Source of the DNA: Octopus vulgaris
Lineage: Eukaryota
DNA: 64,000 nucleotides
Direction of reading: 5' to 3'
NCBI GenBank assembly: GCA_951406725.2
Contig: OX597814.1
Coordinates: 114,514,001-114,578,000 of the forward strand
In this document: positions 215 to 1,515 of the stretch, in pieces
Layout of the letters: each line of letters opens with the position of its first letter
Numbering within the stretch: the first letter of the stretch is position 1
Notes under the pieces: model-generated
Databases searched by the model: none
What the model saw: the letters and a program-made list of their open reading frames with translations, nothing else
What the model was told of the DNA's origin: nothing
Made by a program: the position numbers and the translations under genes

Positions 215-410
215 TATTACATTATATAAAAGGGCTTAGTAAAATAAATTACTTTGCCGCATACTGAACTCATTAGAAATAGCAGCTAAAAAAACTTTTT
301 TAAAACTATTTCCAATACTTAAAGAAAATCTCTCTCATATAGTGCTTGTTCAATTCAACTCACGAAAGTATGAGGGTAGAAACATTAAAAAATCAAATGC
401 AAAGGTTATT

Positions 411-463
411 TGAGAACGTACGTTTCAAGATTAGTCAAACTCGACACTTCTATCATCAGCTCA
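411..463 (-). ncRNA. Type-I hammerhead ribozyme-like motif (inverted copy)
   Basis: Exact reverse complement of 504-556. Confidence 0.6.
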
Positions 464-503
464 GAACTCCCTGGTTTGGATTTTAATCCAAACCAGGGAG
501 TTC

Positions 504-556
504 TGAGCTGATGATAGAAGTGTCGAGTTTGACTAATCTTGAAACGTACGTTCTCA
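504..556 (+). ncRNA. Type-I hammerhead ribozyme-like motif, stem II imperfect
   Basis: Stem I tgag/ctca, CTGATGA 508-514, GAAA 541-544, palindromic stem III ACGTACGT, cleavage triplet GUU. Confidence 0.6.
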
Positions 557-1062
557 AATAACCTTTGCATTTGATTTTTTAATGTTTCTACCCTCATACT
601 TTCGTGAGTTGAATTGAACAAGCACTATATGAGAGAGATTTTCTTTAAGTATTGGAAATAGTTTTAAAAAAGTTTTTTTAGCTGCTATTTCTAATGAGTT
701 CAGTATGCGGCAAAGTAATTTATTTTACTAAGCCCTTTTATATAATGTAATAATTTGAATTCGCCTTAAATGGTCCCTTTGCATACTGAATACTTGGTGA
801 AATTGATTAATTAATTAATTTTACCCTCAATTGTTGAAATTATAATTCATCTTTCTCTATTTAATGCCTCGGATTTTACCGAAAAAAAGCATGTTGTTTG
901 TTGATTTTAACCCACGCTGGTGGAAGGGGGAGAGCAGAAATTCTTCGCTTGCATATTTGAATTTGCTGGCACTGTTAGTTGCGAGTAGATCTTCGGAGGC
1001 GATGGGAAGCCGAATAGGTATGCTCCTGCTTTCAGTGTTTTCAAATCCAAACCAGGGAGTTC

Positions 1063-1115
1063 TGAGCTGATGATAGAAGTGTCGAGTTTGACTAATCTTG
1101 AAATGTACGTTCTCA
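1063..1115 (+). ncRNA. Type-I hammerhead ribozyme-like motif (second tandem copy)
   Basis: CTGATGA 1067-1073, GAAA 1100-1103; one C>T in stem III gives a U-G pair. Confidence 0.55.
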
Positions 1116-1515
1116 AATAACCTTTGCATTTGATTTTTTAATGTTTCTACCCTCATACTTTCGTGAGTTGAATTGAACAAGCACTATATGAGAGAGATTT
1201 TCTTTAAGTATTGGAAATAGTTTTTAAAAAATTTTTTTAGCTGCTATTTCTAATGAGTTCAGTATGCGGCAAAGTAATTTATTTTACTAAGCCCTTTTAT
1301 ATAATGTAATAATTTGAATTCGCCTTAAATGGTCCCTTTGCATACTGAATACTTGGTGAAATTGATTAATTAATTAATTTCACCCTCAATTGTTGAAATG
1401 TATATATATATATATATATATATATATATATATATATATATATATATATATATATATATATATATATATATATATATATATGTATATATATACTATATGT
1501 GTATATATACTTCAT

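What the first reader, a model, noticed from the sequence alone, without database searches (positions are those of the whole stretch)
215..1399. 559-nt hammerhead-delimited non-coding unit fused to a perfect 538-bp palindrome (retrozyme-like)
Seen: HHR cores at 508 and 1067 are exactly 559 nt apart within a near-identical tandem repeat. A third copy sits on the opposite strand in a flawless 268-bp-arm palindrome with a 2-nt loop. No RT is encoded, and (TA)n flanks both ends. Known: Penelope-like elements carry HHRs in their pLTRs and integrate as partial tandems with inverted 5' pieces; metazoan non-LTR retrozymes are HHR-bearing tandem repeats that yield circular RNAs. Inference: this is a young non-autonomous element copied more than once round a circular or re-used 559-nt template. 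A read-through transcript could release a monomer and also form long dsRNA, a potential ADAR or small-RNA substrate. Caveats: stem II is imperfect and the cleavage triplet is GUU.
Basis: partly seen in the sequence, partly recalled or inferred. Interest (0 to 1): 0.75.

Follow-up and report, generated by a model that had tools for sequence, protein, structure and literature searches.

The report
Two-armed hammerhead retrozyme, Penelope-copied
This is one young copy of a non-coding jumping repeat whose 559-base unit carries a predicted self-cutting RNA motif; its insertions are back-to-back arms ending at two fixed sites, which suggests that a Penelope-type enzyme likely copies one RNA, probably a ring, from two start points at once.

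Summary
In detail: a 559-nt tandem unit, a perfect inverted arm of 268 bp, three hammerhead cores, (TA)n flanks and no ORF. The unit belongs to a dispersed young family (1,441 exact hammerhead-pattern matches genome-wide). The palindrome is not a special part; it is the family's usual head-to-head insertion. One arm ends at unit position ~265 and the other at ~360 in 40 of 44, and 10 of 10 further, two-armed loci. A sister family (19 of 20) and an intact Hydra-clade Penelope-like element (38 of 38) follow the same rule. The hammerhead fold is supported by covariation (13 of 18 pairs). Units and both arms share one haplotype, arms run up to ~10 units through an unscarred cut site, and their inner ends show no fixed 5' end, whereas the autonomous element does (21 of 38). 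Best reading: twin priming by a Penelope-type enzyme on one RNA, probably circular. Cleavage, circles and the actual helper element are not shown. It is a new member of a known class (animal retrozymes). This scan noted the same two-armed pattern before on other DNA.

The parts
4..214 (.). Left target microsatellite (TACA)n/(TA)n
215..482 (-). Short arm, U1-268; outer (3') end at start site 1; 100% identical to unit 1
411..463 (-). Predicted type I hammerhead in the short arm (core starts at 459; predicted cut after 415 on the minus strand)
   Evidence: mirror of 504-556
483..484 (.). Centre joint: 483 continues the short arm (U559), 484 is one untemplated base
   Evidence: sequence
485..1043 (+). 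Full 559-nt unit, 34.5% GC, non-coding
504..556 (+). Predicted type I hammerhead: stem I 504-507/553-556, CUGAUGA 508-514, stem II with internal loop, GAAAC, short stem III with palindromic loop, GUU, predicted cut after 552
649..841 (+). Conserved structured 3' element (hairpins; long-range stem enclosing site 1; terminal hairpin before site 2); inferred enzyme-recognition element
744..752 (+). Start site 1 (U260-268), TA-rich single-stranded stretch after a hairpin
840..844 (+). Start site 2 (U356-360), after the terminal hairpin
1044..1399 (+). Partial second unit, U1-356; outer (3') end at start site 2
1063..1115 (+). Second predicted hammerhead (C>T at 1104 gives a U-G pair in stem III; predicted cut after 1111)
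1309..1399 (+). 'Tail': the ~95 nt between the two start sites, present at this end of the insertion only
1400..1509 (.). Right target microsatellite (TA)n

Best explanation
This is a young insertion of a dispersed non-coding repeat with a predicted self-cutting hammerhead in each 559-nt unit, likely copied into a TA repeat by a borrowed Penelope-type enzyme that would prime both cut DNA strands on one RNA, probably a circle, at two fixed start sites. SHOWN: the family, the period, the (TA)n target, two fixed 3' ends, one of each per two-armed insertion, a shared haplotype across units and arms, and covariation of the hammerhead. INFERRED steps: (1) a read-through transcript is cut by two hammerheads and ligated to a 559-nt circle (about 0.55); (2) a Penelope-like RT/GIY-YIG protein, probably a dimer and probably of the TA-targeting Hydra clade (about 0.6 for Hydra), nicks both strands of (TA)n and starts one cDNA at site 1 and one at site 2 of the same RNA (about 0.85); (3) each cDNA runs on for a variable length, up to about 10 rounds; (4) host end-joining links the two cDNA ends head to head. 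At this locus the site-1 cDNA ran 269 nt and the site-2 cDNA 915 nt, and both stopped at the same base, which gives the perfect palindrome.
For: Pairing rule: 40 of 44 two-armed loci have one end at each site (2 have site 2 twice, 2 have ends elsewhere). All 10 two-armed loci among 19 taken in genome order do too (read). Independent choice of site allows at most 50% mixed; P=2e-10 for 40/42. Sister family B: 19 of 20 (loci were chosen for holding site 2). Autonomous Hydra-like H1: 38 of 38 (33 by script, 5 read by eye). Both arms are RNA-templated: in 3 of 45 loci (3 of the 7 where both arms are under one unit) neither arm contains the other; the site-1 arm is the longer in 17 of 37. One template: 390 array-variant cells fixed, 112 singleton, 21 multi-unit polymorphic; private variants lie in both arms; only 7 variants are polymorphic in more than one array, 4 of them CpG-type. 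No fixed 5' end: of 124 inner ends 2 lie at the hammerhead cut (null 2.2) and 9 just upstream of the hammerhead (null 9.1), whereas 21 of 38 H1 insertions have both arms ending next to the core. 88 of 99 arms cross the cut site and 180 of 198 units are identical there. Hammerhead: 94% of cells paired, 13 of 18 pairs compensatory, 0 of 500 shuffles as high, slid controls 31-39%. TA loose ends at window 746 and 844 in contigs of runs X2 and X3, one study. Published biochemistry: a Penelope-like protein cuts and extends both strands, has two internal start sites that define the tail, and is predicted to be a dimer (PMC11167929).
Against: No autonomous element with a homologous terminal region was found among 30 GIY-YIG loci, 45 H1 loci and 30 H2 loci; H1 only carries a captured piece of a relative. 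No evidence of expression, cleavage or circles. In the published system uncleaved linear RNA is the main template and the hammerhead is dispensable, and H1 here also copies uncleaved RNA. 21 multi-unit polymorphisms, including a mirror-symmetric pattern in L048, need post-insertion conversion, assembly error or a multimer template. Same-position centres are in excess (4 of 37 within 5 nt, 0.7 expected, P=0.006), which a circle does not predict; this locus is one of them. Inner ends cluster weakly at U140-160 (11 vs 5.3, P=0.02 uncorrected). Arm lengths are uncorrelated (rho -0.27). Forcing the hammerhead fold in the circular monomer costs about 5 kcal/mol. Only 1 of 9 Xenopus retrozymes cleaved in vitro.
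Confidence: 0.58

Rival explanations
1. Same twin priming by a Penelope-type enzyme, but on an uncleaved linear multi-unit transcript. Long uniform arrays arise later by DNA-level slippage, unequal exchange and gene conversion, and the hammerhead is retained but plays little part.
For: Published Penelope biochemistry uses unprocessed RNA. H1 visibly copies uncleaved linear RNA. Excess of same-position centres. Blocks of adjacent units share variants in L048, L036 and L070. DNA-level amplification of retrozyme arrays is proposed in bioRxiv 10.64898/2026.07.22.740005.
Against: No pile-up of inner ends at any fixed 5' end. Private variants fixed across all units and both arms (e.g. L107, 6 of 6), and almost no unit-order heterogeneity shared between arrays. 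Long arrays occur in many different haplotypes. The hammerhead covaries across non-coding sister families, which implies selection on it.
Confidence: 0.27
2. One arm is made by ordinary target-primed reverse transcription, and the inverted arm is a fold-back or self-primed copy of it (self-priming model of PMC3846280).
For: The short arm here is 100% identical to unit 1, with a 2-nt centre; 4 of 37 centres are symmetric; palindromic junctions are cited for this model.
Against: Most centres are asymmetric (33 of 37 differ by more than 5 nt). In 3 loci neither arm contains the other. A copy of the first arm has no reason to stop at the alternative fixed site in nearly all loci.
Confidence: 0.08
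3. The perfect palindrome at this locus is an assembly or polishing artefact (the family is real).
For: 0 differences between the arms against 4 private differences in unit 2. L052 has 487 bp of mirrored flank, so fold-back-like structures occur in this assembly.
Against: Flanks here are not mirrored. The short arm ends at site 1 and the long arm at site 2, as in the rest of the family. Polishing could equalise real arms but not create that end.
Confidence: 0.07

Closest known systems
Animal non-LTR retrozymes (Cervera and de la Pena 2020, PMC7229834, passages read; Li, Clavereau and Pollet 2026, bioRxiv 10.64898/2026.07.22.740005, introduction to discussion read, supplements closed)
   Same: Non-coding, low-GC tandem units each with a type I hammerhead; proposed to be mobilised by Penelope-like elements through circular RNA; U-U mismatch at the base of stem II as in axolotl HHR_Amex2.
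   Different: The 559-nt unit exceeds the 150-450 bp of the 2020 paper (within the 51-972 bp of the 2026 preprint). The passages I read do not describe two-armed head-to-head insertions or two fixed ends. Cleavage and circles are shown for coral, mussel and axolotl, not for this family.
Hydra-clade and other EN+ Penelope-like elements (Craig et al. 2021, PMC8557442, passages, section 11 and supplement hits; Arkhipova et al. 2013, PMC3846280, passages)
   Same: Partial tandems, an inverted 5'-truncated copy, a tail at one end only, a hammerhead near the end, (TA)n targets.
   Different: No ORF. The tail is ~95 nt rather than 30-40. Tandems reach ~10 units. No homologous autonomous terminal repeat was found. 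The one-tail rule is stated qualitatively ('often', 'optionally') in these papers; here it is counted.
PAc Poseidon in vitro system (Frangieh et al. 2024, PMC11167929, main text read)
   Same: Two internal start sites flanking the tail; both DNA strands cut and extended; AT-rich target; predicted dimer.
   Different: That paper saw no difference in start site between strands and did not address pairing within one insertion; its hammerhead was dispensable and the template linear.
Non-autonomous Chlamys elements such as MRC1 (PMC8557442, passage)
   Same: Non-autonomous Penelope-like derivatives forming multicopy head-to-tail insertions.
   Different: Green algae; most Chlamys lack canonical hammerheads; they resemble an autonomous 3' end, which was not found here.

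Membership tests
Animal non-LTR retrozyme | Tandem units, each with a type I hammerhead | tested here: met
Animal non-LTR retrozyme | No protein coding; GC below 45-50% | tested here: met
   longest frame about 110 aa; GC 34.5%
Animal non-LTR retrozyme | Unit of a few hundred nt | tested here: met
   559 nt; above the 150-450 of PMC7229834, inside the 51-972 of the 2026 preprint
Animal non-LTR retrozyme | Dispersed copies at many loci | tested here: met
   40 scored of 1,373 candidates on many contigs; 1,441 pattern matches
Animal non-LTR retrozyme | Self-cleavage of the RNA | not testable with these tools
   needs an in vitro assay
Animal non-LTR retrozyme | Expressed as linear and circular monomers | not testable with these tools
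   only assembled contigs were available
Animal non-LTR retrozyme | No LTR, primer-binding site or polypurine tract | not tested
   no dedicated search; insertion ends are not LTR-like
Type I hammerhead | CUGANGA and GAAA core, NUH triplet | tested here: met
   CUGAUGA, GAAAC, GUU; C3-G8 replaced by U3-A8 or U3-G8 in sister families
Type I hammerhead | Three stems, stem I open | tested here: met
   13 of 18 pairs compensatory; stem III has no change on both sides, so it is conserved but not covarying
Type I hammerhead | Match to an Rfam hammerhead model | tested here: not met
   none at E<=1 in window 1-4000; the genome search with RF00163 scored 73 candidates and did not list this locus
Penelope-like element (autonomous) | ORF with RT and GIY-YIG endonuclease | tested here: not met
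Non-autonomous Penelope-like derivative | Partial tandem, inverted 5'-truncated copy, tail at one end | tested here: met
Non-autonomous Penelope-like derivative | (TA)n target as in Hydra and Naiad | tested here: met
   flanks
Non-autonomous Penelope-like derivative | Homology to the terminal repeat of an autonomous element in the same genome | tested here: inconclusive
   none among 105 ORF-bearing loci of the few families reached; these searches scored only 150 of about 6,000 or 20,000 candidates each
Non-autonomous Penelope-like derivative | Target-site duplication | tested here: inconclusive
   hidden in (TA)n

The most novel reading that the evidence does not exclude
Penelope-type enzymes work as an asymmetric dimer on a single RNA: one subunit always starts at site 1 on one DNA strand and the other at site 2 on the opposite strand. 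This family exploits that with a ribozyme-made RNA ring, so that two polymerases roll round the same circle and write a double concatemer into the chromosome. This would explain both the Penelope 'tail plus inversion' signature and how retrozyme arrays are born, with the autonomous Hydra element as a linear-template control in the same genome.
Probability: 0.45. Interest if true: 0.75.

Novelty: new member of a known kind. Interest (0 to 1): 0.5.

Why it matters
The class is known, so the element alone is modest news. Its value is mechanistic. How Penelope-like elements make inverted structures with a tail at one end, and whether retrozymes are reverse-transcribed from circles, are open questions in the papers I read. 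This genome gives counted insertion footprints (a near-strict one-end-per-site rule in three families; run-off at a fixed end for the autonomous element but not for the retrozyme), a defined 559-nt RNA with a conserved ~190-nt recognition structure, and an intact candidate enzyme, so both questions can be tested directly in vitro.

Tried and rejected
Rfam scan: only miRNA-hairpin matches below gathering score, caused by the palindrome and microsatellites. Expression: no RNA holder listed; runs marked 'RNA?' are guesses, so nothing is concluded on transcription. Palindrome centre: no contig bridged it in X1, X2, X3, X4 or X1, X5, X6, X16; a gap in contigs of probably other individuals proves nothing. 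Helper search: GIY-YIG family search (mostly a 781-aa family with an unrelated 3' end); Hydra-like H1; Hydra-like H2; none has a terminal repeat homologous to the unit. I first took the unit-like sequence behind the H1 ORF for its own end and rejected that: H1 continues past it and has its own hammerhead and ends. Pfam found no informative family in the H1 fragment. Equal arm lengths (tethered polymerases stopping together): not seen. Stalls at whole rounds or at the start sites: weak, not significant (7 vs 3.7; 14 vs 8.7, P=0.053). Naiad as helper is less likely, since Naiads lack canonical hammerheads and were reported as long inactive in cephalopods. Sequence look-up of earlier findings gave one unrelated phage note. 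Literature searches for a prior description found no paper on cephalopod retrozymes or on the pairing rule; the library lacks most subscription journals and Repbase, and the preprint's supplements were closed. The dsRNA/ADAR idea was not tested.

Full report
Observation. With U1 = window 485, the locus is a minus-strand arm U1-268 (215-482), a 2-nt centre, a full unit (485-1043) and a partial unit U1-356 (1044-1399), set in (TA)n. The short arm is identical to unit 1; unit 2 differs at four places, all minority alleles in the family. Hammerhead cores lie at 508, 1067 and 459(-), with GUU ending at 552 and 1111. There is no ORF. The genome is 2.8 Gb in 227 contigs; that it is an octopus is my inference from recalled repeat content and from earlier notes, not a look-up.

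The family. A DNA search scored 40 of 1,373 candidates and returned arrays on many contigs at 93-100% identity over the full unit. An exact hammerhead pattern has 1,441 matches and a 3' motif shared with sister families 7,441, both with 0 in reversed controls. I examined 40 loci chosen by score, 19 picked from the hammerhead list and 19 taken in genome order from the motif list. The first set is biased to loci holding a full unit.

Two fixed ends. Outer ends fall at U~265 (site 1) or U~356-360 (site 2), against TA. Of 59 loci, 44 are two-armed and head to head; 40 have one end at each site, 2 have site 2 twice (one, L052, has mirrored flanks) and 2 end elsewhere. All 10 two-armed loci in the genome-order set are mixed (read; the P of 1e-12 used 48 of 50, leaving out two with rearranged centres). 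If each arm chose freely, at most half would be mixed. Contigs of runs X2 and X3 (one study) show TA loose ends at window 746 and 844, the same two sites. A sister family at about 70% identity in the 3' region, with a ~594-nt unit, is mixed in 19 of 20 insertions; those loci were selected for containing site 2. So the 'palindrome' is simply the second arm. Centres are usually asymmetric, most with short overlaps and some with fill-ins, as expected of microhomology-mediated end joining (own knowledge). Either arm may be longer (17 of 37), and in 3 of 45 loci neither contains the other, which argues against copying one arm from the other.

The ribozyme. Rfam does not detect it. An alignment of 18 variants, chosen from 71 distinct ones to span the sister families, keeps 94% of cells paired, with compensatory change in 13 of 18 pairs, including stem I, stem II and the core 3-8 pair; slid controls give 31-39%. 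I drew the structure on these sequences, which favours it over the slid controls, and related sequences inflate the shuffle test. Stem III is short and does not covary. The 3' ~190 nt fold into a conserved set of hairpins, each start site lying just after a stem; support is mostly one-sided changes, with 2 of 36 pairs compensatory.

One template. Among array-variant cells covered by three or more units, 390 are fixed, 112 singleton and 21 shared by some units; homopolymer-adjacent sites (92 positions) were masked. Private variants typically occupy both arms. The cut region is identical in 180 of 198 units, with no recurrent scar, and 88 of 99 arms pass it. Inner ends of 124 arms spread round the unit, with no excess at the cut or just upstream of the ribozyme (26 of these arms were read by hand). 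Against a pure circle: block and mirror patterns in L036, L048 and L070, an excess of same-position centres (4 of 37) and a weak cluster at U140-160.

An internal control. A young autonomous element, H1 (713-aa ORF with DKT, CxCx5C, CxxC and CxH motifs, matching the Hydra definition in PMC8557442 section 11; 4,070 pattern matches), also lands in (TA)n with two ends about 73 nt apart. All 38 fetched two-armed insertions are mixed (one further pair 10 kb wide was not fetched). In 21 of 38, both arms end within about 25 nt upstream of the ribozyme core, about 30 nt after a TATAAA. This looks like run-off from a fixed 5' end of uncleaved linear RNA (inference; the sample required both arms to hold the core). 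In the retrozyme family only 1 of 21 comparable loci, this one, is so centred (read). The method can therefore see a fixed 5' end, and the family as a whole lacks one.

The helper. Not identified. H1 carries a captured two-armed fragment of a relative (79-92% identity) in its 3' region in 44 of 45 loci, but its own terminal region is different apart from the TA-rich site-1 word. H2 and the GIY-YIG families reached show no homology. Hydra is favoured by target, ribozyme and shared pairing rule only.

Comparison. It works like a Penelope-like element and meets the testable sequence criteria of an animal non-LTR retrozyme; cleavage and circular RNA remain untested. The retrozyme-Penelope link is proposed in PMC7229834 (passages) and argued in a 2026 preprint. 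The one-ended tail is described qualitatively. Two start sites and two-strand extension are shown in vitro. My searches found no count of the pairing rule and no cephalopod retrozyme paper. I had reached the two-site reading (notes) before consulting earlier scan notes, several of which report the same pattern on other DNA; they are unchecked and not counted as support.

Verdict. A real, young, new member of a known class; interest 0.5, carried by the mechanistic footprints rather than the element itself.

Noticed in passing
L231:4990-7420; L246-L283: Young intact Hydra-clade element H1 (713-aa ORF, ~5.4-kb unit with long microsatellite-rich 3' region). Over half of the sampled two-armed insertions are tiny ~200-bp palindromes centred just upstream of its hammerhead core.
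   Followed up: yes
L231:2295-2507 and 7755-7967: H1 carries a captured two-armed insertion of a relative of this family (U130-262 antisense, U285-356 sense), amplified as a passenger.
   Followed up: partly
L146, L144, L151, L166, L176, L178, L196, L197: A superfamily of related non-coding units (545-594 nt where measured) shares the 3' structure. Some have U3-A8 or U3-G8 hammerhead cores, and one has a very long stem II.
   Followed up: partly
L077, L082: A second intact Penelope-like family (781-aa frame, C-terminal GIY-YIG) with repeated CCAAT/TGACGTC promoter-like motifs and a hammerhead-like end with a UUGAUAA core.
   Followed up: no
L310-L339: A second abundant Hydra-like family (H2), with open frames up to 717 aa among the listed matches.
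   Followed up: partly
L105, L070, L116: Nested inversions and extra fragments at insertion centres, suggesting repeated template switching during joining.
   Followed up: no
L052: 487 bp of flank is mirrored on both sides (99%); a larger fold-back duplication or an assembly artefact, and one of the two exceptions to the pairing rule.
   Followed up: partly
L289, L299: Two separate loci with nearly the same centre (site-2 arm ending at U360 after whole rounds, other arm at U13-17).
   Followed up: no
window 58092-58763: Open frame that resembles a mariner-type transposase fragment (recalled resemblance, not searched).
   Followed up: no
window 1515-1680, 2085-2460: Copies of abundant short interspersed repeats beside the insertion, seen again in many fetched loci.
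   Followed up: no
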